From NCBI GenBank assembly GCA_020724365.1, contig DYHD01000002.1, forward strand, positions 393-64,392: DNA of 64,000 bases, in the 5' to 3' direction. Position numbers and translations under genes: made by a program. The stretch comes from Thermodesulfovibrio yellowstonii. Its GTDB lineage: Bacteria; Nitrospirota; Thermodesulfovibrionia; Thermodesulfovibrionales; Dissulfurispiraceae. Shown here piece by piece: positions 1 to 45,345 of this stretch (within the stretch, counting starts at the first letter, position 1; each line of letters begins with the position of its first letter). The notes beneath the pieces are model-generated. The model did not search any database, was not told where the DNA came from, and saw only the letters and a list, made by a program, of their open reading frames with translations.

Positions 1-1
1 C

Positions 2-1210: not shown

Positions 1211-1213
1211 ATT

Positions 1214-1903
1214 ATGAATAGGACATTAACAATCACAATGCGTCTAAAGTCAAAGACAATAATCGGCTCTGCTGAAGGCTATGGAGCTATAATTGATACA
1301 GATGTAATCTTTGATGAACTTGGTATTCCATACATACCTGCCAGAAGGGTCAAGGGCTGTCTGAGAGAGTCAGCCATCGAAGTGCTTGATATGTTTAGCA
1401 TGTCAGGGATTAACAACTTCATAGAACTTACAAAAGAAGATAAAGAAAAATATAAATATGAGATTGTTAACAAGATATTTGGCAAACCCGGCATGATTGA
1501 TTCTTCACCAGTAAGTTTTGGCAATCTATATTTGGATGATTATGAAGTACTAAATAATTGGCTATTCTATTTAAAGACAGAACTTCAAGGACTCATATCA
1601 AAAGAGTCAATCACTTCATATTATACCGACATTGCACAGCAAACAGCCATTGAGGGTGGCATTGCAAAAAGACATAGCTTAAGGACATGCCGTTTTCTCA
1701 AGGAAGGTCTATATTTTAAGGGCATTATAAACATTTCCGTTTCAGATAATGCAGATGAATATATTAAACTGCTTTATCTATCAGCTAAAAACACTCGTTA
1801 CATAGGATCGAGCCGCACAAGAGGCTTTGGCAAAGTAGAATTTAATATTGAAGGAATTGATGGCAGCAATATCCTCAATAGATTGGAGGTATTATGCACT
1901 TAA
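1214..1903 (+). CDS. Cas7-family RAMP protein (Csm3/Cmr4-like), 229 aa
   Basis: RAMP core 'GIPYIPARRVKGCLRES' and C-terminal glycine-rich loop 'GSSRTRGFGKVEF'. Starts 4 nt after the cas10 stop and overlaps the next gene by 10 nt. Confidence 0.75.
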   Translation: MNRTLTITMRLKSKTIIGSAEGYGAIIDTDVIFDELGIPYIPARRVKGCLRESAIEVLDMFSMSGINNFIELTKEDKEKYKYEIVNKIFGKPGMIDSSPVSFGNLYLDDYEVLNNWLFYLKTELQGLISKESITSYYTDIAQQTAIEGGIAKRHSLRTCRFLKEGLYFKGIINISVSDNADEYIKLLYLSAKNTRYIGSSRTRGFGKVEFNIEGIDGSNILNRLEVLCT

Positions 1904-3408
1904 TTAATTATAGATTAACTACCCTCAGTCCTATAATAATTAGCAAAAATGCAGGAGACCCTAATATGGTTGCTACAGATGACTATATACCAGGGGTTGC
2001 CTTACTTGGTGCTTTTGCAACAGAATTTATCAAGTGGAAAAAGATAGGTTCTTCGGCTCATACAGATGAAGCATTTTGTAACTGGTTTCTTAAAGGCAAG
2101 ATATTTTTTGATAACTGCTATATCAGCTATAGTGAATATGATAAGGAGTTTCCTACCCATCCACTGCCTCTCTGTCTTTGTGAGCTGAAATCAGATTCTG
2201 CCAATAAAGATGCAGTTATATTACATAACCTATTTAATTATGAAGACGATGAAATGCCTGTTACAGCATACAGACAACGATATGTTAATCTGGAAGAAAA
2301 AAGATTCTGTTTCCCCAAGAAATCTCTTAGTTTTCATCACGAAAGAGACTACCACAAAGGCTCATCAAAAGAGAGGATTATCTTCAATTATGAGCAGTTA
2401 GATAAGGCACAGACATTCAGAGGAGTCATAAAATCTGCCGAAAGCAAATATTTAGAGGATTTTATTACATTCTTTGGCAATGAGGTTGAACTCAGAATCG
2501 GAAAATCAAGAGCAACACAGTATGGACAAGTTAAGATTACTTTTGATACCTATCCCACCCAAAAACAAATTCAAAAACCACCAGATTCTGATGAGATAAT
2601 ACTTTTCTTCACATCTCCTGCAATATTTTTGAATGAATACGGGTTTTCTGCCGCAGACCTTCCAGTTATAACTAAATATCTTGACGCTGGTGTTGAAATC
2701 CAAAAGGCATTTTTAAAACAAGAGGAAATTGAGGGATATAGTGCAGTTTGGAAGACAAAGAAATCTCTTTTTAATGCAGTATTTGCAGGTTCTTGTTTAA
2801 AGCTAAATATCACTGAAAAAACTGCTCTTGAAACACTTGCCAAAATGCAAGCAACAGGCATAGGCGAAAAGACAAATGAAGGTTTTGGGCAGTTTCAAAT
2901 CATGCCTTCTGATATGGGGTGTCAGAAAACAATAACTATCAGAGATAATAAGCCCAAATATACAAGACCTAATGGAGATATCCCCCAAACAGTCTCAGAA
3001 GTAGTTAAAGAGATTGTTATAAAACACCTTATCTCCGAGGTAAAAGACAAAGCTATCAACGATTGCAATGAATTTTATAGGGCATCTTCACAATCAATTA
3101 CAAAATTTTTACTAAGCAGACTCGAATCTATGGTGTCTGCAACAGGCAATCTCGATATATCAACACTCCGCAAACCTGCAAGAGATCAATTAGAAAGCAT
3201 TCACAATGAAGAACAGACTCTTAAAGGATTGATTGACAAAAGAATTTCACTTACAGATGTCTATCAGAATACACAAAAACTATCTAAAGAGATTAATTAT
3301 AACCCAAATGCAGATAAAGATTTAACTAAAAAGCTCGAACGAGAGTATTGGCTTACATTCTTTGCATTCATGAGAAAGAGGCTTAAAGGAGGAGGTGACA
3401 GCATATGA
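1894..3408 (+). CDS. Cas5-family RAMP (Csx10-like), 504 aa, with a ~160-aa helical C-terminal extension (possible fused Cas11 small subunit)
   Basis: 'DYIPGVALLGAF' near the N-terminus and two G-rich loops 'RIGKSRATQYGQVKI' and 'GIGEKTNEGFGQFQI'. The tail from about aa 345 is rich in charged and helical-looking residues. There is no separate small-subunit ORF in the operon. Confidence 0.6.
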   Translation: MHLINYRLTTLSPIIISKNAGDPNMVATDDYIPGVALLGAFATEFIKWKKIGSSAHTDEAFCNWFLKGKIFFDNCYISYSEYDKEFPTHPLPLCLCELKSDSANKDAVILHNLFNYEDDEMPVTAYRQRYVNLEEKRFCFPKKSLSFHHERDYHKGSSKERIIFNYEQLDKAQTFRGVIKSAESKYLEDFITFFGNEVELRIGKSRATQYGQVKITFDTYPTQKQIQKPPDSDEIILFFTSPAIFLNEYGFSAADLPVITKYLDAGVEIQKAFLKQEEIEGYSAVWKTKKSLFNAVFAGSCLKLNITEKTALETLAKMQATGIGEKTNEGFGQFQIMPSDMGCQKTITIRDNKPKYTRPNGDIPQTVSEVVKEIVIKHLISEVKDKAINDCNEFYRASSQSITKFLLSRLESMVSATGNLDISTLRKPARDQLESIHNEEQTLKGLIDKRISLTDVYQNTQKLSKEINYNPNADKDLTKKLEREYWLTFFAFMRKRLKGGGDSI

Positions 3409-4760
3409 TAGAAAATATCATAGTATTGAAAGGAACTATCGAACTTCAATCACCAGCCTTGATAGGCTGCGGCAAAGATGACCATACTGATATTGATCTT
3501 ATAAAAGACTCAAAGGGTATCCCTTACATACCTGCCACCTCTCTGGTGGGGGTCTTAAGAGACTTTATAAAACCATCTTCAATGAATGAAGGTGTGCTTA
3601 AAGAATTTTGGGGCTACTCCGTCGATGAAAATTCACAACAGAGTTCTATTACTTGTGATGACCTAAAGGCAATTAATGGTGATGCTAAGCAATCACTTGT
3701 AGAGATAAGAGATGGCGTAGCCATTGATCCAAAGAAAAGCATTGTAGAGGATAAATCTAAATATGATTTCGAGATAATTAAAAAAGGAACAAGATTTTCC
3801 CTCTATTTAGAGGCAAGATGCAAACAAGGTAGAATAAATGAATATTCAAGATTTATTAGAACTATTGAAGCATCCCTCAACAATGGATTGATTAGAGTTG
3901 GGGCAAAGACAAACAGCGGTCTCGGCAGGCTCAAACTAAAGGATGACGCCATCTATATATTTGATTTCAAGGATAAAAAAGATGTTCTTTCATGGCTTAA
4001 GCAAGATTTTACAAATAAAAAACCTGCTGATGAAATCTTGCCATTGAATATTAAATCTAATGACTTCATAATTGAAGCAAGCTTAAGATTGAAAAACTCA
4101 TTTATCATTCGTTCATATCCATCTCTGCCAGAAGACCCAGATGCAGTGCATATCACATCCGCAGATGATTATGTCATACCAGGTTCCTCTCTTAAAGGAG
4201 CTTTAAGGTCAAGAGCTTTGAGAATTGTAAATACCATTGAAAAACCCTATTCGATAATCGAAAATCTCTTTGGAGATGTGTATAACGATGAACAGCAAGC
4301 AAAACAGAAAGGCAGGAAAAAAGGTGATGCCTTTAAGGGCAGGGTTACAGTCGAGGAAGTAATCTTGCCGAGATTTATCTCAGAGCTACAGACTCGTATA
4401 AAAGTTGACCGTTTCACAGGTGGGACGATTGCGTCTGCCCTGTTTGAGACAAAACCACTTTTCAGTTCAAATAATGAAGATATAAAACATCTCAAGATAA
4501 CGATAAAGAACTGCGAACCATACGAGGCAGGACTTATGCTTCTCACCCTAAAAGATCTCTTCACAGGAGACCTTGTAGTAGGTGGCGAAAAGAACATAGG
4601 AAGAGGAGTATTTGAAGGGTTGGGTGCAGAGATTAGTTATGACGGTAAGACAATCTCCATTGATGGCAGTCTCTCAAAATTGGAGCAAGACAAAATACTT
4701 ACACTTAATAATCTTGTAAAAGCCTTTGCAAATTTCAGTGGTGGAGGTGCATCGTGTTAG
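3405..4760 (+). CDS. Tandem Cas7-Cas7 RAMP fusion (Cas7-2x-like), 451 aa
   Basis: Two complete RAMP units: 'GIPYIPATSLVGVLRD' ... 'GAKTNSGLGRLKL' and 'IPGSSLKGALRSRALR' ... 'VVGGEKNIGRGVFEG'. 4-nt overlap with the upstream gene. Confidence 0.75.
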   Translation: MIENIIVLKGTIELQSPALIGCGKDDHTDIDLIKDSKGIPYIPATSLVGVLRDFIKPSSMNEGVLKEFWGYSVDENSQQSSITCDDLKAINGDAKQSLVEIRDGVAIDPKKSIVEDKSKYDFEIIKKGTRFSLYLEARCKQGRINEYSRFIRTIEASLNNGLIRVGAKTNSGLGRLKLKDDAIYIFDFKDKKDVLSWLKQDFTNKKPADEILPLNIKSNDFIIEASLRLKNSFIIRSYPSLPEDPDAVHITSADDYVIPGSSLKGALRSRALRIVNTIEKPYSIIENLFGDVYNDEQQAKQKGRKKGDAFKGRVTVEEVILPRFISELQTRIKVDRFTGGTIASALFETKPLFSSNNEDIKHLKITIKNCEPYEAGLMLLTLKDLFTGDLVVGGEKNIGRGVFEGLGAEISYDGKTISIDGSLSKLEQDKILTLNNLVKAFANFSGGGASC

Positions 4761-5305
4761 AGAACAATGGCTTAAAGCTGAAAAAAATTAAAAGCACTGT
4801 TTTGCCAGTAAATATTACTAAATCCCTAAAACAAGAGATTTCAGAAAGAATAAAATCTGATGCCTATGTTGTAGCCTATCTTGATTATGCAGTACTTATT
4901 GGAAAATTCAAAAACGACGAATTTCAATTTTACAATAATGAGCAGTTCCAAGACAGATTTGCCCAGAGAATTCGTATATTCCAAAATGATCGTGAACTGC
5001 ATATATGGCGTTGTAATGACAATAACTTCAAAGGGCGTCTGAGGATTGATGACGAAACAGGTGAAGAGACAGTTGCAGTTGATGCATATCAGGTAATGCT
5101 TGGTACTAATACAGAAAGACTCGGTGAATACACAAAGCTAATAGAAGAAAGAGGGGCTGAGTTAATCCTGCCATTGAAAAATATCTCAGTTGATGACAAA
5201 AAGAAAAGGCTTTTTCTAAAGACGAGGAACTACATCGGCTATAATCCAATACAGCAGGCAGGATATGTGGACTGCAGATTTGTAGAAATTACAGATAAAG
5301 CTTAG
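4754..5305 (+). CDS. Small non-RAMP type III subunit, Csx19-like by size and position (183 aa)
   Basis: No RAMP motifs. It overlaps the preceding gene by 7 nt and sits between the double Cas7 and the Cas7-insertion gene, as csx19 does in III-D loci (assignment by context only). Confidence 0.45.
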   Translation: MLENNGLKLKKIKSTVLPVNITKSLKQEISERIKSDAYVVAYLDYAVLIGKFKNDEFQFYNNEQFQDRFAQRIRIFQNDRELHIWRCNDNNFKGRLRIDDETGEETVAVDAYQVMLGTNTERLGEYTKLIEERGAELILPLKNISVDDKKKRLFLKTRNYIGYNPIQQAGYVDCRFVEITDKA

Positions 5306-5320
5306 AAGGAGTAAGAGAAA

Positions 5321-7318
5321 ATGGAAAAAGCAATAATATTTATAAAAGAAGTTAATAAAGGAAAATACAGTTGTAATATTCAATTCAAATCTTCAAACAA
5401 GACTATGCCTCTATCTGACTTTAAGCATTCAGACCCAATGTCTTTCAATGAAAAAGAAGTTGAGGTGCTTAGAGAGAAAGGACAGATTATGAAAATAGTC
5501 TGTGAAGGCAAAGAGATATACAATAAACATTCACCTAAAGGACTAACAAAGCTTCAAAAAGCACAAAGAAGTGCTTCTATTCAAAACCACAACCATTCAC
5601 CTGCAATCGCGCCATATAACTTTATCCCTCTTAACACAAAAGTAGTCCAAGCTGAGCGAATACCTGACTTTGATATTTATCATGCAGACAGATTTACAGG
5701 CTATATTGACCTCGATATAGAGAGCCTTACGCCATTATATATCAGAGACACACTGATGGATGAGGAGATTAAGCAAAGAGATGAAAATGATAGACAGAGA
5801 CAAAATGATGCAACTTGCTCAGTATATGCAAACCCCGATTTTTTCTCACCCGCTGGGCGCCTCCGCATACCCGGCAGTTCCTTGAGAGGCATGATAAGAA
5901 CAATGGTTGAGATAACGAGCTATGGCAAATTTGGATTTTATAATGATAAGAGGTTGTATTATAGGGGATTGGCTGATAAGAGTGAACTTAGAATAGAATA
6001 TCAGAAGAATATGTCATCCTTTGATAAAAATAGCAATAAAAATATCTATAAAATGTCAGCAGGCTATATATTCAAGAAAAATCTTAAATATTTCATAGTC
6101 CCAGCAAAAAATTATCGTCAGATTACTAAAGACGAAGCTAAAAAATTGATAAAAGAAATTGGTGGCAAATATAAAGAGTTCAGGTTCTATGATGTCAAAA
6201 CAGGCTTTATTGTAGTTTCTGGAGATATGAATAATAAAAAGAGAGATTGGTTTATTGAATATAAGGACACAGATCAAAAACCCATTGAGATTAATAGAAA
6301 AGACATCCAAGATTACAGAGATGACATTAACAGAAATAAAGATGTTCCAAACTTGCTCGAATTATCAAGAAAAGGTGAAGTGCCGTGTTTTTATACCAGA
6401 TATTTTGATAACAAAAGTATTCAAAGGGTCTCCTTTGGTCACACAGGCATGTTCAGGCTCGCTTATCGTCAGACAATAGGAGACCATATCCCTGCAAATC
6501 TTAAAGATGAACAAATTATTGACATTGCTGGAGCCATCTTTGGCAATGAAAAGACTTTTGCTGGTAGAGTATTTTTTGAGGATGCCTTTTGTTCAAGCAG
6601 TAAAGAAGATGCCCTCATGGGTGAGAGGACTCCTAATATCCTTGCAGGACCTAAACCCACGACATTTCAGCACTATCTTGAACAGGGTAGCAATAACCTC
6701 GAAAATCACCCTAAAAATCTTGCCCATTATAATTCCAATACCAACATCAGAGGCTATAAGCTCTATTGGCATAAGGGCGGAAATGAGTGGGAACAGCAAA
6801 ATCAACAAGAACTCAGAGAGCACCAGAGTCAATATACGAAGATTAACCCTGTAAAAGAAGGAGTTATGTTCAAGGGTCGGATAAGATTTGAAAACCTCTC
6901 TGAGATTGAACTTGGTGCATTACTTTTTGCCATTGACCTACCCGAAGGACTTGCACACAAGCTTGGCATGGGCAAACCATTGGGATTAGGCTCAGTCAGG
7001 ATTACACCAAAGCTTTATATCTCAGATAGAAGCAGCCGTTATTCTGATTTATCAACCGAGTGGGCTGAACCTATTGAAGAATCTTCTGACATAGATAAAT
7101 TCAAAAAAGCTTTTTCAGATTATGTGATTAAAAAATTAGGTGAGACAGCAAATACGCTCTGGGAGACCAAAAGGCTCGGAGAACTCAGGATAATGCTCGA
7201 TTTTATAAGTAAGCCATCTAATAATAGCACTCGATATATGAAAATAGAAGCTGGCAATAATAAAGACAATGAATTTAAAAATCGAAATGTTCTGCCTCGA
7301 CCTTCTGAAGTCAGATAA
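5321..7318 (+). CDS. Large Cas7-family RAMP with a big internal insertion (TIGR03986/all1473-like), 665 aa
   Basis: 'APYNFIPLN', 'RIPGSSLRGMIRTMVEIT' and the distal G-rich loop 'KLGMGKPLGLGSVRI'. About 190 aa of non-RAMP sequence lies between the core motifs, plus a ~95-aa N-terminal extra region. RBS-like 'aaggag' lies upstream. Confidence 0.7.
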   Translation: MEKAIIFIKEVNKGKYSCNIQFKSSNKTMPLSDFKHSDPMSFNEKEVEVLREKGQIMKIVCEGKEIYNKHSPKGLTKLQKAQRSASIQNHNHSPAIAPYNFIPLNTKVVQAERIPDFDIYHADRFTGYIDLDIESLTPLYIRDTLMDEEIKQRDENDRQRQNDATCSVYANPDFFSPAGRLRIPGSSLRGMIRTMVEITSYGKFGFYNDKRLYYRGLADKSELRIEYQKNMSSFDKNSNKNIYKMSAGYIFKKNLKYFIVPAKNYRQITKDEAKKLIKEIGGKYKEFRFYDVKTGFIVVSGDMNNKKRDWFIEYKDTDQKPIEINRKDIQDYRDDINRNKDVPNLLELSRKGEVPCFYTRYFDNKSIQRVSFGHTGMFRLAYRQTIGDHIPANLKDEQIIDIAGAIFGNEKTFAGRVFFEDAFCSSSKEDALMGERTPNILAGPKPTTFQHYLEQGSNNLENHPKNLAHYNSNTNIRGYKLYWHKGGNEWEQQNQQELREHQSQYTKINPVKEGVMFKGRIRFENLSEIELGALLFAIDLPEGLAHKLGMGKPLGLGSVRITPKLYISDRSSRYSDLSTEWAEPIEESSDIDKFKKAFSDYVIKKLGETANTLWETKRLGELRIMLDFISKPSNNSTRYMKIEAGNNKDNEFKNRNVLPRPSEVR

Positions 7319-7606: not shown

Positions 7607-8029
7607 TCAAAAGGTTAGATTCATATCAGCCTGAACAACGGTCTCCTTATAATAAACAGCAGGATTAGCCAGTTTGACACCATCGACAAAATCATCTTTT
7701 GACATCCCAAATAGAGGGACATTGAGAGGACAGGCAAGCATTTGAGCTCCCTCTTTATATAGCATAAAGAGAAGTTCTTCAACAGAAGGCAATTCCATCT
7801 CTTCCATCCTCTTCATTACTGCATCGCTTATTTCCTCCGACTGATCTGGCAGACACTTAAGTTCTTTCAGCCTTCCTTTATGGACAGCATTAACCCCTCT
7901 TGAGCCAAAAAATATTGTAACCCTTGAACCTTCTCTTAGAAGACTCAAAGCCGTCATAAGTGCGTTATATACCTGACATAGTTCATCATGAAAACACATT
8001 ATAGATACATTTTTGGTTATCTTCGCCAT
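7607..8029 (-). CDS. DsrE/DsrF-like family protein (COG2210, DsrE2/3-like), 140 aa
   Basis: Size and pattern of DsrE-fold proteins, with a conserved-looking Cys in 'MLACPLNVPLFGM'. 'aggag' RBS. Last gene of the DsrE-type operon. Confidence 0.6.
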   Translation of the reverse strand: MAKITKNVSIMCFHDELCQVYNALMTALSLLREGSRVTIFFGSRGVNAVHKGRLKELKCLPDQSEEISDAVMKRMEEMELPSVEELLFMLYKEGAQMLACPLNVPLFGMSKDDFVDGVKLANPAVYYKETVVQADMNLTF

Positions 8030-8071: not shown

Positions 8072-9223
8072 CTATGTGGATGCTGAGTTAGCCTTTACAG
8101 CCTCCCTCTTTTCCTCAGATCTTATTTTATTAATCATGAGAAAAGCATACATAGCTACGGCCATAACTATACTTGCATAGTTTACAGACGCTAACAAAGA
8201 ACTTGGATAATAGTTTCCATAAACATAAACTCCCAGAACCTGGGAGCCAACAAAGGCTCATATCATCCCCCACTTAGTAGGTGAAAATCTACTCTTCACA
8301 AAATCTTTTCTTAAATAATCACTGAGCAGATATATGCAAAAAATACCCCATGAGACTGCTGTCACATAAGACAAGTTGATTGAAAGAAATAATGAAGCAT
8401 CAACATTAATTGCAAAGTATTTTTGCAAATATAACATAAGCCTATAAAAACTCACCCCAAAAAGGCAAATAATTGGGATAACCATAAAATAAGCGGGCAA
8501 CAACGGAATGTCGGGTAATCTTGAGGATTTTATTTGGAGGTAAACCAAATATGATAGTTTAGTAACAAACAAGAAAACGCCGATACCTAACACAAATAAT
8601 GTTCCAAAGGCTGCAATCGAGGCTATTTCACTATTTATTGCAGTGGCTGCGATTCCTGAACCGGTTAAACAAACAAGGCCGAATGCAAAAACATCAAGCA
8701 GCCATGTAAAGTTTAATTTGTCGGTATCTACAGGGTTAGTGAGCCATATTTTGAGCACCTTGAATTCAAGTTTGAGAATAATGAGCCAAAGAGCCCCGAA
8801 GAAAAGCAAAGAAGGCAGCATCAGGGACTGTAAAATTGAAGACAATTGAGGCAAAAAAAATGCGAGAGGACCCCAAATTATATTTGCAGTCATAGATAAA
8901 GAAGCAATGGGCGAAAAAACCCCTATGTTGATTTTGGGATCATTTATAAAGGTATTATACTCTTCCTTATTTGCCAGCCACATTACAAGACTTTTAAGAA
9001 AAACCAATGTAAAAAGCAGATGGGTAACGGTAAATACGAGCATGATCCCAACTAAGGGAAAAAGGTGAATGTTTTGAGCTATGGTCAACTCAGACCATGG
9101 AATATCGAATAGCATAACCGGCTTACCCCAGCGTGGCTCTACAAACTGCAAATAAACAAAAGGCATTAAGGCAACGCCTCCAGCGGCTACTGATGTCTGA
9201 AAAATTATTGGTGTGAATTTCAT
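8072..9223 (-). CDS. TDT/TehA-like polytopic membrane protein with in-frame TGA at 8258-8260 (candidate Sec; the conventional ORF is 8258..9223)
   Basis: The 321-aa ORF is almost entirely hydrophobic helices and ends 'FSPTKWGMI' + TGA. The same frame continues for 61 stop-free codons ('AFVGSQVLGVYVYGNYYPSSLLASVNYASIVMAVAMYAFLMINKIRSEEKRE..') encoding further TM-like sequence. It ends at TAG 8072-8074, 42 nt before the next gene. The family call rests on overall topology and a 'W..F.G' C-terminal motif and is tentative. Confidence 0.5.
8230..8246 (-). promoter_or_regulatory. SECIS-like hairpin 11 nt downstream of the TGA at 8258-8260
   Basis: mRNA sense CUCCCAG-GUU-CUGGGAG, a perfect 7-bp stem. 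If the closing pair opens, the loop reads GGUUC. Confidence 0.4.
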
Positions 9224-9318
9224 GATTTATCCTCGTATAGTAGTCTTTTGGTGCGAGTTTTTAGGCAAAATGTTCAAAATATTTATAGAGCAATATGGTT
9301 TAAATAAGCCTCCTTCTT

Positions 9319-9600
9319 TCAAAATGCCCCTATTACATTATCTTCCTTTATCATCAGGTCAACGAGCATATCATAATCAATTTTTTTGATATCTTTTTCT
9401 ATGTCTCCTTCGCCAAGCCCTCTGAGCCTTCTATCCTCATCAAGCAGATAAACCGTTCCGCAGAAACCCTCAAGGCGGTCTTTCACTGCGAAGTAAACCG
9501 CATTCTGGATAAGGCATATATCAGCAGCCATATCACGGGCTATTTTTATGCCCCTTTTACCTTCTGTTGTATCAGGGGCGGTTTTTATTATCACGAGCAT
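9319..9600 (-). CDS. DsrH/TusB-like protein, 93 aa
   Basis: Size, an 'MLVIIKTAP' type N-terminus and its position as third gene after DsrE- and DsrF-like ORFs. Confidence 0.55.
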   Translation of the reverse strand: MLVIIKTAPDTTEGKRGIKIARDMAADICLIQNAVYFAVKDRLEGFCGTVYLLDEDRRLRGLGEGDIEKDIKKIDYDMLVDLMIKEDNVIGAF

Positions 9601-9614
9601 CTTTACCTCCAGAC

Positions 9615-9968
9615 TTAAAATATCATCGTTACATCTGTAGAGCTTAATATTTCAGCAATCTCAGAACTGCCTAACACCTTTACCCCGTCTATAAGATGTG
9701 TAGTCTCCATGCCTTCTTCCTTCAAAGAAGCCCTCTCTGCATATATTTCAACATTCATATCAATGCAGTCCTTTATCCCTTCTTCAATGCTTAAATATTC
9801 AGTATTGCTCGTATCCTGTCCCTTTCTTGCAGCATTAACACCGCCGTCAATTAAAATAAGATTAACTGAAATCCCCTCAGTTATGCCTCCAAGCGCATGC
9901 CTTATCGCCTCAGATGCGTCAATGGTGCCGTATGGTGGTTTTCTTAAAATAATATTTATACTCTCCAT
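9615..9968 (-). CDS. DsrF/TusC-like protein, 117 aa
   Basis: DsrE-fold pattern 'INIILRKPPYGT..A.EA.R.ALG' and 'LILIDGGVNAA'. Second gene of the E-F-H triplet. Confidence 0.6.
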   Translation of the reverse strand: MESINIILRKPPYGTIDASEAIRHALGGITEGISVNLILIDGGVNAARKGQDTSNTEYLSIEEGIKDCIDMNVEIYAERASLKEEGMETTHLIDGVKVLGSSEIAEILSSTDVTMIF

Positions 9969-9979
9969 AAAAAATCCCC

Positions 9980-10324
9980 TTATACACCAAAATTCAAAAA
10001 AATCGGTCGAGACTTTATCACATTAAAAAGCCCTTTCAAAGAACTCATCTCTCCACCTTTGACTGAATCCTCGCCCGCAAGACCGCGGTTCATCATACAC
10101 CCTGTTCATATATCAACCTTCAGTCCCCGCTCTACAAGGTCTTCCAAAGCCGATAATGATTTAGGAAGCTGCCCTTTTACAATTGAGAAGACGCCGTCAC
10201 CAGAGGCAATAAGCCTCACCTTTAGCCCCTTCTTTATTGCGATATCAGCAAGATTAAATATTGTGTGTGTATTTTCAAAACTATAGGGCGTTGTTGTAAG
10301 AAACATCACTATCTCCTTTTGCAT
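9980..10324 (-). CDS. DsrE/TusD-like protein with in-frame TGA at 10106-10108 (candidate selenocysteine); 114 aa if read through
   Basis: The listed ORF 10106..10324 (72 aa) stops at TGA. The same frame continues for 41 codons ('TGCMMNRGLAGEDSVKGGEMSSLKGLFNVIKSRPIFLNFGV') to TAA at 9980-9982, 11 nt before the next start. The result has normal DsrE/TusD length, and the TGA sits where the active-site Cys lies in the 'h-h-C-x5-RG' motif. Confidence 0.65.
10075..10088 (-). promoter_or_regulatory. Small hairpin with GGUCUU loop 17 nt downstream of the TGA at 10106-10108 (weak SECIS candidate)
   Basis: mRNA sense CCGC-GGUCUU-GCGG. It is only a 4-bp stem. The loop contains the GGUC that I recall from the E. 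coli fdhF SECIS apical loop. Confidence 0.3.
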
Positions 10325-10325
10325 T

Positions 10326-10667
10326 TTAATGCCTCCTTTGTCCGGGATATACTCCCTTTTTTGTTACAGGACAACAAGCAGGGGGTGGCAATTCTTCCTG
10401 ATAATCTTTCCTGAGAATCTCCAGTATATCAGGCACTAAGGGGTCTCTGAGGAAATAACATCTGAGCCTTCCATCCATATAATAGTCAATTAAGCCGTGC
10501 GTTCTTAAAATAGTGAGGTGTTGCGAGGTATTAGACTGGCTGATTTCAAGGAATTCCTCAAAATCGCTTACACATTTTACCCCTTTGGTTAGTTCCTCCA
10601 GTATTTGTATCCTTACAGGATGTGCAATTACTTTTAGTAGTTCTGCTTTTTTCCCTAAAGAAAGCAT
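10326..10667 (-). CDS. ArsR/SmtB-family transcriptional regulator, 113 aa
   Basis: wHTH 'HPVRIQILEEL...CVSDFEEFLEISQSNTSQHLTILRTHGLI' and a C-terminal 'PPPACCP' cysteine pair. Its stop lies 1 nt from the DsrE-like start. Confidence 0.8.
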   Translation of the reverse strand: MLSLGKKAELLKVIAHPVRIQILEELTKGVKCVSDFEEFLEISQSNTSQHLTILRTHGLIDYYMDGRLRCYFLRDPLVPDILEILRKDYQEELPPPACCPVTKKGVYPGQRRH

Positions 10668-10869
10668 ATCTCAAATACCCTTTTATTTATGACTACCAAA
10701 TATTATGTTTTAGGCTGTAAAAATGGCTTATAATTATTCCCTGCTTATGGAGATTATATTTTGAAACTTGAATTTTCTTATGTTAGAATATCTTAATATT
10801 TTAATATATTGTTTTGTCAATGTAAAAAATTACTCCATTTTGGAAATTTTGATTCATAAAGGAGGAATT

Positions 10870-12009
10870 ATGCGTAAGCCTGTCTATCTCGATTATAATG
10901 CAACAACCCCTCATGATGCTGAGGTTATCTCTGCAATGCGACCATATTTAGAGGAACATTTCGGCAACCCCTCAAGCTCTCACCAATATGGGCTAATCTC
11001 AAGAGAAGCCATAGAATTAGCTAGAAGACAGATTGCATCATTGTTAAACTCTTACCCTGAAGAGATTGTGTTTACAAGTGGTGGGACTGAATCTAATAAT
11101 CATGCTATAAAAGGCATTGCCTATGCTAATTTACATCGAGGCAATCATATAATCACATCTCAGATTGAACATCCTTCGGTAACAGATGTTTGTGAATACC
11201 TTCGTAAAAATGGTTTTGAGATTACATATATACCTGTAGATGAATCAGGGCTTGTGAATCCCACTGATATCGAAAAGGCAATTACAAACAGGACAATTTT
11301 AATAACTATCATGCATGCCAATAATGAAGTGGGCACAATTCAACCAATAGAAGAGATTGCTGAAATAGCTTCAAAAAATGGCATAATTTTTCATACAGAT
11401 GCAGCTCAGTCTCTTGGAAAGATCTTAGCGGATATCAATTCATTGAGAGTTGACCTCCTTACCATAGCCGGTCATAAATTATATGCACCAAAAGGAGTCG
11501 GTGCCCTTTATATTAAACAAGGCACTGTCCTAACAAAGTTAATGCATGGAGCAGGTCAGGAAAGAGGCATAAGAGCTGGAACGGAGAATGTCCTTGAGAT
11601 TGTCGGGCTGGGCAAGGCATGTGAGATAGCAAAAAGAGATTTTGATAAAAATTATATGCAGATGCAACAGACAAGAGACATGCTATATCTTACACTCAAA
11701 GAAAAGATAAAAGATTTGAGACTTAACGGGCATCCTGAAAAAAGACTTCCAAACACCTTGAGTATCAGCTTTAAAGGTATAAATGCTAATTCCCTTATTT
11801 CAAAAATCAAGGACTATGTAGCGGTCTCTGCTGGTGCTGCGTGTCATTCTGGTGTGGAAAAAATATCTTCCGTCTTGACGGCTATGAGAGTCCCATATGA
11901 GTGGGCTAAAGGCACAATACGATTTTCAACAGGCAAGATGACCACCGATGAAGAGATTCAATATGCTATTGGAGTTATCTCGGAAACTATAAATTCACCT
12001 CATCTCTAA
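10870..12009 (+). CDS. Cysteine desulfurase (NifS/IscS class V aminotransferase)
   Basis: 'VYLDYNATTP', 'FTSGGTESNN', 'TIAGHKLYAPKGVGALY' (PLP-Lys), 'SAGAACHSG' (active-site Cys). I place the start at the ATG 10870 preceded by 'aaggagg'. The ORF-track start 10768 (TTG) adds an implausible AT-rich leader. Confidence 0.85.
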   Translation: MRKPVYLDYNATTPHDAEVISAMRPYLEEHFGNPSSSHQYGLISREAIELARRQIASLLNSYPEEIVFTSGGTESNNHAIKGIAYANLHRGNHIITSQIEHPSVTDVCEYLRKNGFEITYIPVDESGLVNPTDIEKAITNRTILITIMHANNEVGTIQPIEEIAEIASKNGIIFHTDAAQSLGKILADINSLRVDLLTIAGHKLYAPKGVGALYIKQGTVLTKLMHGAGQERGIRAGTENVLEIVGLGKACEIAKRDFDKNYMQMQQTRDMLYLTLKEKIKDLRLNGHPEKRLPNTLSISFKGINANSLISKIKDYVAVSAGAACHSGVEKISSVLTAMRVPYEWAKGTIRFSTGKMTTDEEIQYAIGVISETINSPHL

Positions 12010-12027
12010 AATATGGGAAAAGATATA

Positions 12028-12801
12028 TTATTTCACCTCGTGGCTAAGTCCAATATAATAAACCTGAGGCTTTGAGTTGTAACCAGGACTTAATACTGTA
12101 ACCCTATTGGTTTTGACGATCTTAGTAACTGGATCATCAGGATTATGGATGTTTCCTATCTTTCTGGCGCCGAAGGCACATGCATCAACACAAGCGGGTT
12201 GCAAGCCTCGAGTTATGCGATGATAGCAAAAGTTGCATTTCTCTGCGACATGTAAAATAGGATGTATAAATCTTATGCTGTATGGACAATTTGAAATGCA
12301 GGCTGAGCAGCCAATACACCATTTTCTATCGACTAGAACAACGCCATCGCTTGTTTTGTAAGTTGCTCCAACAGGGCAAACTTCTACGCAAAGAGGGCGA
12401 TCGCATTGATTACATAGTTTAGGTACAAACATTCCTTTAGCTATATCTACATTGGGGACTTCTATCCCAAGCGGATTATTTCTAATAAACCCGTCACGTC
12501 CCTGTTTTGGGGAGTCAACAATCATTTTGCCATCTTTTTTGATTATATATCTTTCTATCCATGTTCGGGCTAAATTTATATGATAGGGAAGCTCATTTTC
12601 AATCTGACATGCCTTGACGCACATACCGCATCCAATACATTTAGTTGAATCTACGAGGAATATCCACCTGATGTTAGATTGTTTTGCAATATCTGCTTTG
12701 GCTTCTGAAGCTAAAAACTCTATGGCACCTAGTGGCAGTGACATGCCAGCTATAGTTATAATTCCAGCCTTTAAAAAATCTCTTCTGGAGTGTTTATTCA
12801 T
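12028..12801 (-). CDS. Periplasmic 4x[4Fe-4S] ferredoxin-type subunit (NrfC/PsrB/DsrO-like) with Tat signal
   Basis: 'SRRDFLKAG' twin-arginine motif. Cys clusters 'CIGCGMCVKAC', 'CNQCDRPLCVEVCP', 'CIGCSACISNCP', 'CNFC....PACVDAC'. Confidence 0.8.
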   Translation of the reverse strand: MNKHSRRDFLKAGIITIAGMSLPLGAIEFLASEAKADIAKQSNIRWIFLVDSTKCIGCGMCVKACQIENELPYHINLARTWIERYIIKKDGKMIVDSPKQGRDGFIRNNPLGIEVPNVDIAKGMFVPKLCNQCDRPLCVEVCPVGATYKTSDGVVLVDRKWCIGCSACISNCPYSIRFIHPILHVAEKCNFCYHRITRGLQPACVDACAFGARKIGNIHNPDDPVTKIVKTNRVTVLSPGYNSKPQVYYIGLSHEVK

Positions 12802-12811
12802 ATTCGTATCC

Positions 12812-13312
12812 TCACTTAATATTAGCCTTATGGGGGTTATGACACGCTATACATTCCATTTCTGGATTATGGTTATCAGGGTCTATCAACTTGAGTTTAA
12901 TATCCCCTTTTGGCAATTCGGAGTATTGTGTCGGACGATAGGGAAGGTCTGAATGACATCTTAGGCAAAGCCCTCTGCCCTTATCGATAGCAAGTTTAGT
13001 GGGATTGTCGGGGTGATCAATTGCAGGTCCATGACAGCTCTCGCAAGAAACTTTTGCATGCAAAGATGCCTCTACTTGTTTAAACTCATTTGCGTGGCAG
13101 TCCATGCAATATGAATTGCCGCGATATTTCACCTTGAAGTCTTTCCACTCCTGCTGGTTTGCAAAACGGTGCCATTGATATCTGTAATCATTATTAGCAG
13201 CCTTGAAGGATGGAGCTATAATCATTCTGGCTCCGACAATACCCGCTACCCCTATAATGGTAATAAGAACTAAGGCAATTAATATTTTTCCAAGTCCAAT
13301 TTGACCTTTCAT
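12812..13312 (-). CDS. Membrane-anchored tetrahaem c-type cytochrome, 166 aa
   Basis: N-terminal TM helix plus four CXXCH motifs (CMDCH, CESCH, CLRCH, CIACH). Confidence 0.8.
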   Translation of the reverse strand: MKGQIGLGKILIALVLITIIGVAGIVGARMIIAPSFKAANNDYRYQWHRFANQQEWKDFKVKYRGNSYCMDCHANEFKQVEASLHAKVSCESCHGPAIDHPDNPTKLAIDKGRGLCLRCHSDLPYRPTQYSELPKGDIKLKLIDPDNHNPEMECIACHNPHKANIK

Positions 13313-13332
13313 TTATATAATCTCCTCACAAA

Positions 13333-14520
13333 TCATTCTTCATCCCTTTCGTCTTTATCAAGGGGTAGATATTTTATGCCGAGCATATATCCTGTCCAAA
13401 TAAAACCAAGTAAACCAATGCTGTAAGCAATTTCTACAAGACTGGGGGTATAAGATGCAAGTTCATAGAGAGAGCCTCCAAGCTCATTGTCAAAAGGAGT
13501 GAAGGCAAGAAAAGGAACAAGCTGACCTACGATAATAAAATCATATCGTCCAATATAAAGCCCTACTACCACTAGAAGACCGGCTAACGCCATCTTATTG
13601 ATATCCTTGAATCTTGAATAGACCAATAATGCAATTGGTATCAAATAAGTCATTAAAACTTCGCCGACCCAGAAATTCAAAGAGAATTTGCCTGTCAAGA
13701 GTATGAAAGCCTCTTTTTTGTGTGCATAATGACTTGAGACCACCTTCCAATATAAAAAGAAAAGGGCGATCACGAGAAGATAAACCAGCATCTTGCCAAT
13801 TATCCGAAGTGACTCTTTAAGCTTTTCACTCATTTGTGCGCCTGTCATCTTATATGTGTATGTGGTTATAAATATAATCATAGCTGAAGATGTAAAAAGA
13901 GCTGATAGAAGGAAATATATGGGATAGTATGGTCCAAACCATAAAGATCTTGAATAGTTGAGCCCAAAGATAGCACCATGGTAGCTGTGCACTACAACAG
14001 CTGCAACAAATGCCACTATTGCTACAACCTTGACAAGCAAGTCATGATGTCCCCTTTTTATAACAAGATATAGTTCAAGTGAGATTAAAAGTATATAAAG
14101 CGTGATGCTCATTGCTACTACTCCCATAGGAGCCGTGAAATGAGTGGTCAATAACAAAAAAGGCGCCCTAAGCGGTGAAGCCAAATCTGCTGCTACGCTT
14201 AAGACGCCTGCCACAACGATAATTACTGCAAGATAAAGAGCCCTGCGGCTGATGACATCAAATTGTTTAAAGCCTAAAACTATACCGAATGAGGAAATAT
14301 AACTTAATCCGATGCTGGAGATAGCAAAAGCATAATTTACAATAAAAATACCCCATGGAACTTCTTTGCTGGTAGCGAGTGCGTGATGACCGAAAATCGC
14401 TATATGGACTCCGCCATATAAGAACCCTGCCAGCATAATCAAACCCGCTACCAAGCTTAGCATAAACCATCTAGATTGAGGCTCAGCCTGAGAAGCAGTC
14501 AAAAGCTGTTCTGTTCGCAT
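13333..14520 (-). CDS. NrfD/PsrC-family integral membrane quinone-interacting subunit, 395 aa
   Basis: Polytopic hydrophobic protein of NrfD size, immediately upstream of the cytochrome c and FeS subunits (typical NrfD-type module). Confidence 0.65.
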   Translation of the reverse strand: MRTEQLLTASQAEPQSRWFMLSLVAGLIMLAGFLYGGVHIAIFGHHALATSKEVPWGIFIVNYAFAISSIGLSYISSFGIVLGFKQFDVISRRALYLAVIIVVAGVLSVAADLASPLRAPFLLLTTHFTAPMGVVAMSITLYILLISLELYLVIKRGHHDLLVKVVAIVAFVAAVVVHSYHGAIFGLNYSRSLWFGPYYPIYFLLSALFTSSAMIIFITTYTYKMTGAQMSEKLKESLRIIGKMLVYLLVIALFFLYWKVVSSHYAHKKEAFILLTGKFSLNFWVGEVLMTYLIPIALLVYSRFKDINKMALAGLLVVVGLYIGRYDFIIVGQLVPFLAFTPFDNELGGSLYELASYTPSLVEIAYSIGLLGFIWTGYMLGIKYLPLDKDERDEE

Positions 14521-44907: not shown

Positions 44908-44961
44908 ATGCTGTTCCTCCCAAAAATTGATTTTTTTATTTATCTTTTGTTTATAATACCA

Positions 44962-45200
44962 CATTAGGTGCCATATGGCTTAATAGGGAATCCCGTGAGG
45001 CTTTTAATTATAGTCCGAGTCGGGAGCGGTCCCGCCGCTGTAACCGGTACGAAAGCCCACAAAGGCAGTCGTTAGTTGTTAGTATATTAGGTAAACGATT
45101 AAAACTGTCATCGCCACTGAAAAGGTTTACTTTTTGGGAAGGCGGGTGAGTAGGGAATTAAATATTAGAAACCGGAAGCCAGAAGACCTGCCTGATAAAG
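44962..45200 (+). promoter_or_regulatory. Cobalamin (B12) riboswitch aptamer
   Basis: Conserved blocks 'aatagggaa', 'ggtcccgccgctgtaaccgg', 'cgccactg....gggaaggcg' and the B12 box 'agccagaagacctgcc'. Upstream of the cob operon on the same strand. Confidence 0.85.
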
Positions 45201-45345
45201 ACAGTGAATAGTTGTTGAGTTTGAATGTAAAAACTGAATGCTCTTATTCCTCACCATTCATTACATAATACTGACTATATACTGTTCACTAGTGTAAATC
45301 CTTCACGCGGAGGAAGGCAGAGGATGAAGTAAAACAGGGTGCAAT

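What the first reader, a model, noticed from the sequence alone, without database searches (positions are those of the whole stretch)
9980..10324. In-frame TGA at the active-site cysteine position of a DsrE/TusD-like protein
The annotated 72-aa ORF ends '...ERGLKVDI' + TGA (10106-10108). The same frame then reads 'TGCMMNRGLAGEDSVKGGEMSSLKGLFNVIKSRPIFLNFGV' to TAA (9980-9982), giving a normal 114-aa DsrE/TusD-size protein that ends 11 nt before the next gene. The TGA falls in the 'hydrophobic-hydrophobic-C-x5-RG' motif. As I recall, the persulfide-carrying Cys (Cys78 of E. coli TusD / A. vinosum DsrE) sits there, which is the classic pattern for Cys/Sec exchange. A small hairpin CCGC-GGUCUU-GCGG lies 17 nt downstream. 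DsrE-like selenoproteins have been listed in metagenomic selenoproteome surveys (from memory), so the family-level idea is not new, but the operon context is.
Basis: partly seen in the sequence, partly recalled or inferred. Interest (0 to 1): 0.7.

Follow-up and report, generated by a model that had tools for sequence, protein, structure and literature searches.

The report
Selenocysteine DsrE subunit, Nitrospirota sulfur relay
The "stop" codon inside this small DsrE/TusD-type sulfur-carrier gene is almost certainly read as selenocysteine at the active-site position, as it is in at least 69 related Nitrospirota species whose genes are mis-annotated as 72-residue stubs; the protein family was already listed as a selenoprotein, so this is a solid new member rather than a new kind of thing.

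Summary
On the minus strand, a DsrE-family gene (9980-10324) has an in-frame TGA (10106-10108), and the same frame reads on to TAA, giving 114 aa.

It is a genuine selenoprotein gene, not a pseudogene:
- Codon 73 is TGA in 73 of 73 related sequences. The true terminator is only ever TAG or TAA.
- dN/dS is 0.054 before the TGA and 0.070 after it.
- U73 aligns with Cys78 of E. coli TusD. Full-length Cys-form homologues carry CxxC where this protein has U-T-G-C.
- The hairpin CCGC-GGUCUU-GCGG meets the published bacterial SECIS criteria. Its codons have about tenfold lower synonymous divergence, and its pairs covary.
- A paralogous clade has TGA at the same site and a different hairpin sequence in the same place.
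- Eight related loci carry SelD interrupted by an in-frame stop in its N-terminal motif.

The gene is the E subunit of a conserved ArsR-DsrE(U)-DsrF-DsrH operon. In this genome the next gene, TsoY, is a second selenoprotein.

"DsrE-like, UxxC" selenoproteins have been listed since 2004-2005, so the family is known. Its place in a DsrEFH-type operon across Nitrospirota was not described in any paper I could read, and NCBI annotation truncates it. The biochemical role (persulfide relay through Sec) is inferred, not shown.

The parts
9980..10324 (-). Full DsrE/TusD-type selenoprotein gene, 114 codons including U73, from ATG 10322-10324 to TAA 9980-9982
   Evidence: sequence, translation. Pfam PF02635 match to residues 6-104 spans the TGA. 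The same frame is conserved in 68 species loci. dN/dS is 0.054 upstream and 0.070 downstream.
10106..10108 (-). Sec codon UGA (U73)
   Evidence: TGA in 73/73 related sequences, while the real terminator is TAG (50) or TAA (23) and never TGA. Aligns with TusD Cys78 and with Cys of the Cys-form homologues.
10097..10108 (-). U-T-G-C (UxxC) motif, codons 73-76
   Evidence: T74, G75 and C76 are invariant as amino acids but vary synonymously (ACA/ACC/ACG/ACT; GGC/GGG/GGT/GGA; TGC/TGT), so they are translated in this frame. Cys forms have CGTC or CGSC. UxxC is the motif published for DsrE-like selenoproteins (PMC1088965, PMC13188914).
10075..10088 (-). bSECIS-like hairpin: stem CCGC/GCGG, loop GGUCUU (10079-10084). 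A fifth pair (10089/10074) forms in most relatives but is A.G in the window.
   Evidence: RNAalifold predicts it independently. Covariation score is 0.190 vs 0.086 in shuffles (0/500), and slid controls reach at most 0.029. Pair 23:38 is GC 26/CG 24/UA 3; pair 27:34 is CG 63/UA 2/AU 1/UG 1. Synonymous entropy of codons 79-84 is 0.11 vs 0.82 elsewhere, p=2e-5. dS is 0.167 vs about 1.7. There are 21 nt between the UGA and the loop, and constrained MFE is -9.5 kcal/mol. Criteria are from PMC13188914.
10326..10667 (-). ArsR/SmtB-family regulator, first gene of the operon; its stop lies 1 nt before the DsrE(U) start
   Evidence: Pfam HTH_5; NCBIfam HTH_metalloreg 75.5 bits; sub-threshold BigR and TsoR hits. 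Present upstream in 55-59 related loci.
9615..9968 (-). DsrF/TusC-like subunit (DsrE family, Glu instead of Cys in the active-site column)
   Evidence: Pfam DsrE E=1.4e-14. TIGR03010 36.9 bits, below cut-off. Follows DsrE(U) at about +355 nt in 72 loci. Alignment.
9319..9600 (-). DsrH/TusB-like subunit
   Evidence: Pfam DsrH E=8.7e-10. TIGR03011 41.6 bits, below cut-off. Present in 68 loci at about +720 nt.
8072..9223 (-). Second selenoprotein of the operon: TsoY (SLAC1/TehA-like membrane protein), Sec-UGA at 8258-8260 (motif U-A-F-V), hairpin at 8228-8248
   Evidence: NCBIfam NF047643 gives 449.5 bits on the truncated ORF (profile 1-321/366) and 522.4 bits (1-363/366) with read-through. Sequence. 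Hairpin is -15.9 kcal/mol with loop GUU, 18 nt after the UGA. Cys forms have Cys at the site. Beside DsrEFH only in this genome (0/72 loci).
7607..8029 (-). DrsE_2 / DsrE2-like protein, last gene of the cluster
   Evidence: Pfam PF13686 E=1.2e-15. NF047629 DsrE2 35 bits, far below cut-off. Found downstream in 7-8 related loci and in L075.
10768..12009 (+). Divergent NifS/IscS-type cysteine desulfurase ORF (real start probably near 10870, at MRKPVYLDYNATT)
   Evidence: Pfam Aminotran_5 E=6e-80. TIGR03402 NifS 475 bits, below its 530 cut-off; SclA 137 bits. Neighbour in 5-6 related loci.

Best explanation
The gene at 9980-10324(-) encodes a 114-residue DsrE/TusD-type protein. Its UGA at codon 73 is decoded as selenocysteine, directed by a small SECIS hairpin (CCGC-GGUCUU-GCGG) 17 nt downstream. 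Sec occupies the position of the persulfide-carrying Cys78 of TusD/DsrE and forms a U-x-x-C motif with Cys76. The protein is the E subunit of a DsrEFH/TusBCD-like complex, encoded by an ArsR-regulated operon (ArsR-DsrE(U)-DsrF-DsrH) that is conserved across uncultured Thermodesulfovibrionia-type Nitrospirota.

Shown here: conservation of the TGA, translation of the downstream part, Sec/Cys column identity, RNA-level constraint and covariation of the hairpin, operon conservation, and a SelD gene interrupted by an in-frame stop in related genomes.

Inferred from established TusBCD/DsrEFH biochemistry and from gene context: Sec73 accepts sulfane sulfur, forming a selenenyl-persulfide (Se-S), from a donor such as a cysteine desulfurase, a TusA-like or SQR-like partner, or polysulfide. 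It passes the sulfur on, or resolves it through Cys76, as part of persulfide/polysulfide handling. Usual partners are an SQR-like flavoprotein, DsrE2-like protein, RND exporter and BigR-like regulator. Sec would give faster attack and release than Cys.
For: - TGA in 73/73 sequences, and the terminator is never TGA.
- 120/120 listed database homologues end ...V(D/S)I, and 105 are exactly 72 aa.
- The downstream 41 codons are conserved in frame in 68 species, with dN/dS 0.070 vs 0.054 upstream. The other two frames are full of stops.
- Codons 74-76 are invariant as amino acids with free synonymous change.
- The Pfam DsrE match spans the TGA.
- U73 aligns with TusD Cys78, and Cys-form homologues carry CxxC.
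- Hairpin: RNAalifold, covariation, frozen synonymous sites, and bSECIS criteria met.
- The paralogous clade has TGA and UGGC with a different hairpin at the same distance.
- SelD carries an in-frame stop in ..CAG*A(S/A)KFSP.. in 8 related loci, read as TGA in L013.
- A second Sec gene, TsoY, sits in the same operon.
- TGA is an ordinary stop in 12/51 large window ORFs, so the code is not reassigned.
- Only these two of 15 TGA-terminated ORFs have long in-frame extensions.
- Operon conservation.
- An in vitro sulfur-transfer role of the homologous Cys in DsrEFH types I and II is reported in PMC13293266.
Against: - No direct evidence of selenium incorporation.
- No selA, selB or selC was seen in the 64-kb window or in the fetched flanks, so the Sec machinery of this particular genome is inferred.
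- In the window itself the hairpin has only 4 base pairs, and the unconstrained MFE fold of the region prefers another register.
- Rfam reported no matching family at gathering threshold.
- The protein misses the NCBIfam TusD/DsrE equivalog cut-off (0 hits for the window protein; 17-36 bits vs 89 for relatives), so it is not an orthologue of TusD or DsrE, and sulfur-relay activity is extrapolated.
- No tusA, dsrC/tusE or dsrAB lies next to the operon.
- The extra Cys76 (UxxC) is absent from TusD/DsrE and hints at redox chemistry rather than simple relay.
Confidence: 0.9

Rival explanations
1. The gene is a pseudogene or a genuinely truncated 72-residue DsrE fragment; the TGA is a real stop and the downstream frame is decaying remnant.
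For: Gene callers and NCBI/JGI annotation treat it this way: 72-aa 'DsrE family protein'. TGA is a normal stop elsewhere in the window.
Against: The same TGA is kept in 73/73 sequences from about 69 species at 71-93% protein identity, with no frameshift or second stop in the next 41 codons in 68 loci. Downstream dN/dS is 0.070. A 72-aa product would lack the active-site half of the DsrE fold.
Confidence: 0.01
2. Split gene: two separate polypeptides are made, 72 aa plus a 38-aa product re-initiated at Met77, and they reassemble into a DsrE fold.
For: Gene callers predict a 38-aa ORF starting at Met77 in relatives. Met77 is 97% conserved.
Against: Codons 74-76 (T-G-C), which lie between the TGA and Met77, are invariant as amino acids with free synonymous change, so they are translated. 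Two species have ATA (Ile) instead of ATG at codon 77 (L039, L043). The stop is always TGA, never TAA or TAG, which re-initiation would not require. A split does not explain the covarying hairpin or the Cys in that column of unsplit homologues.
Confidence: 0.02
3. Read-through without selenocysteine: the UGA is leaky or recoded by a near-cognate or suppressor tRNA (Trp, Cys, Arg or Gly), with the hairpin acting as a generic read-through stimulator.
For: Sequence alone cannot identify the inserted residue. No Sec machinery was seen in the window.
Against: The site is the catalytic Cys column, the classic Sec/Cys pattern. The hairpin fits the SelB-type bSECIS rules, including GG at the start of the loop and 21-nt spacing. 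Related genomes encode SelD, itself interrupted by an in-frame stop in its N-terminal motif. The adjacent TsoY is a curated selenoprotein family.
Confidence: 0.03
4. Functional rival: the complex is a selenium carrier rather than a sulfur carrier. It would take Se from a NifS/selenocysteine-lyase-type enzyme and hold it as Se-Se or S-Se on the UxxC motif for SelD, or for detoxification or export through TsoY or the RND pump.
For: SelD lies within 8 kb in 8/71 loci and a NifS-like gene in 6/71, including the window. YedF, a selenium-linked protein, contains a DsrE-like domain with a CGxC motif (PMC5322559). In the window the operon also holds the selenoprotein TsoY, of the TehA (tellurite-resistance)/SLAC1 fold.
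Against: Selenoprotein genes often sit near sel genes without a functional link. Most loci (about 60/71) have neither SelD nor NifS nearby. The commonest partners (SQR-like flavoprotein, DsrE2-like, BigR-like regulator) point to sulfur. The NifS-like protein scores far better as NifS/IscS than as SclA (475 vs 137 bits).
Confidence: 0.1

Closest known systems
'DsrE-like' selenoprotein family (PF02635, UxxC motif) of Kryukov & Gladyshev 2004 / Zhang et al. 2005-2008, reference WP_014524487.1 (Desulfovibrio vulgaris); 'DsrE 1' and 'DsrE 2' of the GOS survey
   Same: Same Pfam family and the same UxxC Sec motif. Sec/Cys pairing with CxxC homologues. A bacterial SECIS immediately downstream (PMC1088965, PMC1794560, PMC2398784, PMC13188914).
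   Different: The published entries are table rows with no operon, partner or function. Here the protein is the first subunit of a conserved E-F-H operon in Nitrospirota, a phylum not named for this family in the papers I could read. I could not compare directly with WP_014524487.1 because the sequence was not obtainable with these tools.
E. coli TusBCD (TusD Cys78) and Allochromatium vinosum DsrEFH type I (DsrE Cys78; PDB 2D1P, 2HY5)
   Same: Gene order E/D, then F/C, then H/B. Three small DsrE/DsrH-fold proteins. The reactive residue is in the same alignment column, followed by x6-RG. The F-like subunit lacks the reactive residue.
   Different: Sec instead of Cys, plus a second Cys three residues on (UxxC) that TusD/DsrE lack. 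All three subunits score below the NCBIfam equivalog cut-offs. No rpsL/tusA/tusE or dsrAB/dsrC context; instead an ArsR regulator, an SQR-like flavoprotein, DsrE2-like protein, an RND exporter or TsoY.
DsrEFH type II (Plum-Jensen et al., ISME J 2026, PMC13293266)
   Same: A divergent DsrEFH in sulfate reducers and disproportionators, including many Nitrospirota (subtype 1 is 57% Nitrospirota). Three syntenic genes. A conserved reactive residue in DsrE, shown to transfer sulfur in vitro.
   Different: Type II carries Cys (Cys67, conserved in 99.3% of operons) and sits with yeeE/yedE and tusA. The present operons carry Sec and sit with ArsR, SQR-like and RND genes, and no YeeE or TusA cluster appeared among the 22 most widespread clusters of the neighbourhood census. 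Type II was 'not recognised by sequence-based annotation', whereas these proteins hit Pfam DsrE/DsrH. Membership could not be tested because no type II sequences or HMMs were available.
Tso ('three selenoprotein operon') neighbourhood and selenoprotein TsoY (Haft & Tolstoy 2025; NCBIfam NF047643)
   Same: The window's operon contains a bona fide TsoY (522 bits, UxxV motif) and an ArsR-type regulator. It is a multi-selenoprotein operon (PMC13188914).
   Different: TsoA, TsoB, TsoC and TsoX were not found among the ORFs scanned. The ArsR misses the TsoR cut-off (31 vs 115 bits). TsoY accompanies DsrE(U)FH only in this genome. The primary paper could not be read.

Membership tests
Bacterial selenoprotein gene (Sec-UGA + bSECIS) | In-frame UGA conserved among orthologues, with the coding frame under purifying selection beyond it | tested here: met
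   TGA in 73/73. 68 loci are intact to the same end. dN/dS downstream is 0.070.
Bacterial selenoprotein gene (Sec-UGA + bSECIS) | Cys-containing homologues with Cys aligned to the UGA | tested here: met
   P0128, P0129, P0146, P0153 and E. coli TusD have Cys in the column.
Bacterial selenoprotein gene (Sec-UGA + bSECIS) | bSECIS model: 3-9 nt apical loop, at least 4 bp upper stem, G in the first two loop positions, 16-37 nt from UGA to loop, MFE of -7.5 kcal/mol or lower (PMC13188914 Fig. 2A) | tested here: met
   Loop GGUCUU (6 nt). Stem 4 bp in the window, 5-6 bp in most relatives. Spacing 21 nt. Constrained MFE is -9.5 in the window and -7.5 or lower in 67/67. The 4-bp core alone is only -6.8 kcal/mol.
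Bacterial selenoprotein gene (Sec-UGA + bSECIS) | Sec machinery (selA, selB, selC, selD) in the same genome | tested here: inconclusive
   No tRNA-Sec or SelD in the 64-kb window. SelD with an in-frame stop in its N-terminal motif is present in 8 related loci. The rest of the genome is not available.
Bacterial selenoprotein gene (Sec-UGA + bSECIS) | Selenium actually incorporated at the site | not testable with these tools
   Needs 75Se labelling or LC-MS/MS.
DsrE/DsrF-like family (Pfam PF02635) | Score above Pfam gathering threshold | tested here: met
   46.2 bits vs 22.7; residues 6-104 match profile 4-108/116.
TusD/DsrE equivalog (NCBIfam TIGR03012 / NF001237) | Score above the curated equivalog cut-off (89-92 bits) | tested here: not met
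   No hit for the window protein at E of 0.01 or lower. 17-36 bits for the clade-2 and Cys-form relatives. So it works like a DsrE but is not an orthologue of TusD or DsrE.
TusBCD / DsrEFH complex | Reactive Cys78-equivalent residue in the E/D subunit | tested here: met
   U73 is opposite TusD Cys78 in both MAFFT and hhalign. It is present as Sec, not Cys.
TusBCD / DsrEFH complex | Three adjacent genes for E/D, F/C and H/B subunits | tested here: met
   Pfam DsrE, DsrE and DsrH in that order. Conserved in 68-72 loci.
TusBCD / DsrEFH complex | Forms a heterohexamer and transfers sulfur from TusA to TusE/DsrC | not testable with these tools
   Biochemistry is needed. Structure prediction only accepts exact window sequences, and the exact sequences contain the stop.
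'DsrE-like' selenoprotein family (UxxC) | PF02635 domain with Sec in a UxxC motif | tested here: met
   U-T-G-C in the window, U-G-G-C in clade 2. Motif as listed in PMC1088965 and PMC13188914.
'DsrE-like' selenoprotein family (UxxC) | Direct sequence similarity to the reference WP_014524487.1 | not tested
   The reference sequence cannot be retrieved by accession with these tools.
DsrEFH type II (PMC13293266) | Synteny with yeeE/yedE and tusA | tested here: not met
   Neither appeared among the 22 most widespread clusters within about 7-8 kb of the TGA in 71 loci, nor among the genes flanking the operon in the window; the census reps were not searched against YeeE or TusA profiles.
DsrEFH type II (PMC13293266) | Score above 80 bits on the authors' type II HMMs | not testable with these tools
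   The HMMs and sequences are not in the paper or its held supplements.
Tso operon (Haft & Tolstoy 2025) | TsoA, TsoB and TsoC selenoproteins with regulator TsoR | tested here: not met
   Only TsoY passes its cut-off. The ArsR gives 31.4 bits vs 115 for TsoR. No TsoA/B/C hit among the 17 flanking ORFs scanned.

The most novel reading that the evidence does not exclude
In this genome, two selenoproteins encoded side by side form a Sec-to-Sec chalcogen relay: TsoY, a SLAC1/TehA-type membrane protein with Sec in its last helices, and the cytoplasmic DsrE(U)FH complex. A sulfur (or selenium/tellurium) species would be taken through or from the membrane protein on one selenol and handed to the selenol of DsrE. 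More generally, Nitrospirota would run a persulfide relay on selenium chemistry that gene surveys of the sulfur cycle currently miss, because dsrE is called as a 72-residue stub.
Probability: 0.15. Interest if true: 0.75.

Novelty: new member of a known kind. Interest (0 to 1): 0.5.

Why it matters
**Annotation.** At least 69 Nitrospirota species, and several hundred protein clusters in public databases, carry this gene as a 72- or 76-residue "DsrE family protein" stub lacking its active site. No NCBIfam model hits it, so automated pipelines will keep truncating it.

**Sulfur-cycle genomics.** DsrEFH is used as a marker of sulfur-oxidising capacity. A 2026 survey of DsrEFH in sulfate reducers and Nitrospirota scored operons by the presence of the active Cys. 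Sec-containing versions would be missed, or counted as "lacking the functional cysteine".

**Mechanism.** A sulfur-carrier protein with selenocysteine at the persulfide-carrying position offers a natural test of what Sec buys in sulfane-sulfur transfer, namely a selenenyl-persulfide intermediate.

**This operon.** The window's operon also carries a second, unrelated selenoprotein (TsoY). That makes it a compact case for studying co-expressed selenoproteins.

Tried and rejected
- **Single-sequence folding.** Folding the region after the UGA gave no signal (z=+0.94), and the MFE structure used a different register. I therefore relied on comparative evidence.
- **Rfam.** At gathering threshold it found only a cobalamin riboswitch in the window and nothing at this site.
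- **PDB sequence searches.** Both the single-sequence and profile searches were swamped by designer pentatricopeptide-repeat proteins. These are repeat-summed chance similarity to ...LEDLVERGLKVDI..., each repeat only about 8-13 bits. They are artefacts. YchN (1jx7) and DsrE (2hy5) appeared only weakly, and their alignments were not printed. I instead fetched genuine E. coli tusD from NC_000913.3 and aligned it.
- **Unproductive searches.** Plasmid collection: no match. tRNA-Sec: none in the window or in 60 loci. Source contig and organism name: not recovered.
- **Papers not held.** Haft & Tolstoy 2025 (the Tso/TsoY source) and Kryukov & Gladyshev 2004 could not be read. The DsrEFH type II supplements contain no sequences.
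- **Explanations rejected.** Pseudogene, split gene and code reassignment; see the rival explanations.
Full report
**1. The observation**

On the minus strand, an ATG at 10322-10324 opens a 72-codon ORF ending ...ERGLKVDI, followed by TGA at 10106-10108. The same frame continues TGCMMNRGLAGEDSVKGGEMSSLKGLFNVIKSRPIFLNFGV to TAA at 9980-9982. The next gene starts 11 nt later, at 9968. With the TGA read through, the 114-residue product matches Pfam DsrE (PF02635) over residues 6-104 at E=6e-12, so the domain spans the stop. The hairpin CCGC (10085-10088), GGUCUU (10079-10084), GCGG (10075-10078) begins 17 nt after the UGA.

**2. Not a pseudogene, not a split gene**

A protein search returned 261 clusters. 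Of the 120 listed, 105 are exactly 72 aa and all end ...V(D/S)I. They are labelled Nitrospirota, Thermodesulfovibrionales, Dissulfurispiraceae or Ca. Sulfobium.

A scan of one genome per species found 69 loci, all Nitrospirota MAGs. In 68 of them the frame runs through a stop at codon 73 and on to about the same end. The stop is TGA in 73/73 sequences, whereas the true terminator is TAG (50) or TAA (23) and never TGA.

Nei-Gojobori dN/dS is 0.054 for codons 2-72 and 0.070 for the downstream codons outside the hairpin. The two alternative frames are full of stops.

Codons 74-76 (T, G, C) lie between the TGA and the first downstream ATG. They are invariant as amino acids but vary synonymously. 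Two species have ATA instead of ATG at codon 77. Translation therefore continues directly across the TGA rather than restarting.

TGA is an ordinary terminator for 12 of 51 large ORFs in the window, so the genetic code is standard. Of 15 TGA-terminated ORFs, only this one and the TsoY gene have long in-frame extensions (41 and 61 codons; all others 15 or fewer).

**3. The TGA sits on the active-site cysteine column**

I took genuine E. coli K-12 tusD from NC_000913.3. MAFFT and hhalign both place U73 opposite Cys78 of TusD...ALNICVAAALRRG against ...KVDIUTGCMMNRG. The hhalign statistics against a single sequence are weak (E=0.099). Homology itself rests on the Pfam match.

An exhaustive HMMER search with the exact 72-aa ORF found full-length Cys-form homologues:
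- P0128: ...RVELCGTCLNFRG
- P0129: ...IELCGSCLRMRG
- P0146 and P0153

The exchange is therefore CxxC to UxxC. The window's second DsrE-family protein (F-like) has Glu in that column.

**4. The SECIS element**

On its own the hairpin is unremarkable. Across 65 unique genes, however, normalised synonymous entropy is 0.11 for codons 79-84 (ACC CGC GGT CTT GCG GCT) against 0.82 elsewhere. These six are the six lowest codons in the gene (Mann-Whitney p=2e-5). dS there is 0.167 against about 1.7.

RNAalifold on a gapless 67-sequence alignment predicts exactly this hairpin, with a fifth pair. For the named structure:
- Covariation score is 0.190 against 0.086 in shuffles (0/500 reach it), and slid controls reach at most 0.029.
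- Pair 23:38 is GC 26, CG 24, UA 3.
- The closing pair 27:34 is CG 63, UA 2, AU 1, UG 1. Some of these changes cost an A83T or A83S substitution.

The element meets the published bSECIS constraints (loop 3-9 nt, stem at least 4 bp, G in the first two loop positions, 16-37 nt spacing, MFE of -7.5 kcal/mol or lower; PMC13188914). It has a 6-nt loop starting GG, 21 nt of spacing, and a constrained MFE of -9.5 kcal/mol in the window and -7.5 or lower in 67/67 sequences. In the window itself the fifth pair is A.G, so only four pairs form.

A paralogous clade (76-aa truncations, 416 clusters, again Nitrospirota) has TGA at the same column, motif U-G-G-C, and a different hairpin sequence (CGCC-GGGC-GGCG) 22 nt after the UGA. 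The structure is conserved while the sequence is not.

**5. Sec trait in the lineage**

The window holds no tRNA-Sec or sel gene. Eight related loci carry selD (TIGR00476, 362 bits) within 8 kb of the operon. Each has an in-frame stop in ...CAG*A(S/A)KFSP..., read as TGA in L013. From my own knowledge, that is the position of SelD's N-terminal catalytic Cys.

**6. Context**

The core ArsR-DsrE(U)-DsrF-DsrH arrangement is conserved in essentially all loci. What follows varies:
- an SQR-like flavoprotein
- a DrsE_2/DsrE2-like protein
- an MMPL/HAE3 RND exporter with LolA-like and outer-membrane partners
- a second ArsR
- sometimes SelD, a NifS-like desulfurase or a TauE/SafE-like permease

The regulator gives sub-threshold hits to the sulfite/sulfide-sensing BigR.

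In the window, the gene after DsrH is TsoY, a SLAC1/TehA-like membrane protein and itself a selenoprotein. NCBIfam NF047643 scores 449.5 bits on the truncated ORF and 522.4 bits (profile 1-363/366) with read-through. Its TGA is at 8258-8260 in the motif U-A-F-V. A 9-bp hairpin with loop GUU lies 18 nt downstream (-15.9 kcal/mol). Cys forms have Cys at the site. TsoY accompanies DsrEFH only in this genome (0/72 loci), and its nearest relatives are Firmicutes and Desulfobacterota. It looks like a lateral insertion.

**7. Mechanism (inferred)**

In TusBCD and DsrEFH, the Cys78 residue carries sulfane sulfur between TusA and TusE/DsrC. The homologous Cys67 of DsrEFH type II was shown to be the active sulfur-transfer residue in vitro (PMC13293266). 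By homology and operon structure, Sec73 most likely does the same through a selenenyl-persulfide. Cys76 could act as a resolving or redox partner.

The partners suggest persulfide/polysulfide handling. A role in selenium trafficking is a minority alternative, prompted by SelD, NifS and the YedF precedent (PMC5322559).

**8. Comparison with what is known, and novelty**

"DsrE-like" selenoproteins with a UxxC motif have been listed since 2004-2005 (D. vulgaris, Sargasso Sea, GOS) and still appear in 2022 and 2026 reviews as uncharacterised. At family level this is known.

Several things I could not find described. These are its role as the E subunit of a DsrEFH-type operon, its fixation across about 69 Nitrospirota species and two paralogous clades, and its pairing with TsoY. 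No held paper combines selenocysteine, DsrE and DsrH. The 2026 DsrEFH type II paper does not mention Sec. NCBIfam has no model that hits the protein.

Two key papers could not be read, so priority is uncertain. I classify the finding as a new member of a known kind, with moderate interest.

Noticed in passing
window 8072-9223 (-): The gene after DsrH is a second selenoprotein, TsoY (SLAC1/TehA-like). It has an in-frame TGA at 8258-8260 (motif U-A-F-V), a 61-codon extension and a strong hairpin at 8228-8248. It sits next to DsrEFH only in this genome and is closest to Firmicutes/Desulfobacterota homologues, which suggests lateral acquisition.
   Followed up: yes
L013 about 9141-10200; also L019, L023, L038, L052, L059, L066, L071: selD (selenophosphate synthetase) lies within 8 kb of the DsrE(U)FH operon in 8 species. 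In each it carries an in-frame stop in ...CAG*A(S/A)KFSP... (read as TGA in L013), and gene callers cut off the N-terminus.
   Followed up: partly
L075 8001-8360 (also L076, L077): A second, paralogous clade of Sec-containing DsrE (76-aa truncations, 416 database clusters, motif UGGC). It has a different SECIS hairpin (CGCC-GGGC-GGCG) and the same operon (ArsR-E-F-H-SQR-like-DrsE_2-MMPL).
   Followed up: partly
L021 about 560 nt upstream of the TGA (and 4 other loci): A stand-alone Cys-form DsrE paralogue with the motif ...FACGTCLKLRN... is encoded just upstream of the Sec-containing operon in five species.
   Followed up: no
window 10326-10667 (-): The operon's ArsR regulator has a conserved C-terminal ...PACCPVTKKG... 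Cys pair plus Cys32. It gives sub-threshold hits to the sulfite/sulfide sensor BigR and to TsoR, so it may be a persulfide or metalloid sensor.
   Followed up: no
window 1-7318 (+): Type III-D CRISPR-Cas effector genes (Csm3/Cmr6-like RAMP, Csx10, Csx7-like, Csx19, TIGR03986-family RAMP) directly flank the sulfur-relay cluster.
   Followed up: no
window 44949-45209 (+): A cobalamin riboswitch (Rfam RF00174, 82.3 bits) lies upstream of a run of + strand ORFs starting at 45339.
   Followed up: no
window 12028-14520 (-): A three-gene membrane redox module: a NrfD/PsrC-like membrane subunit, a small multihaem cytochrome c and a TAT-signal 4Fe-4S protein. No obvious catalytic subunit lies beside it.
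   Followed up: no
window 9709-10026 (+) and 10059-10286 (+): Antisense ORFs of 105 and 75 aa overlap the DsrF and DsrE(U) genes. A similar antisense ORF recurs in 46 loci simply because the sense strand is conserved. They are almost certainly spurious, but they can displace the real genes in naive ORF picking.
   Followed up: partly
Genome-contig hits L005-L073: All 69 species carrying the Sec-type DsrE are uncultured (MAGs or environmental assemblies). No cultured Thermodesulfovibrio or Dissulfurispira genome was hit, so there is currently no isolate in which to test it.
   Followed up: no
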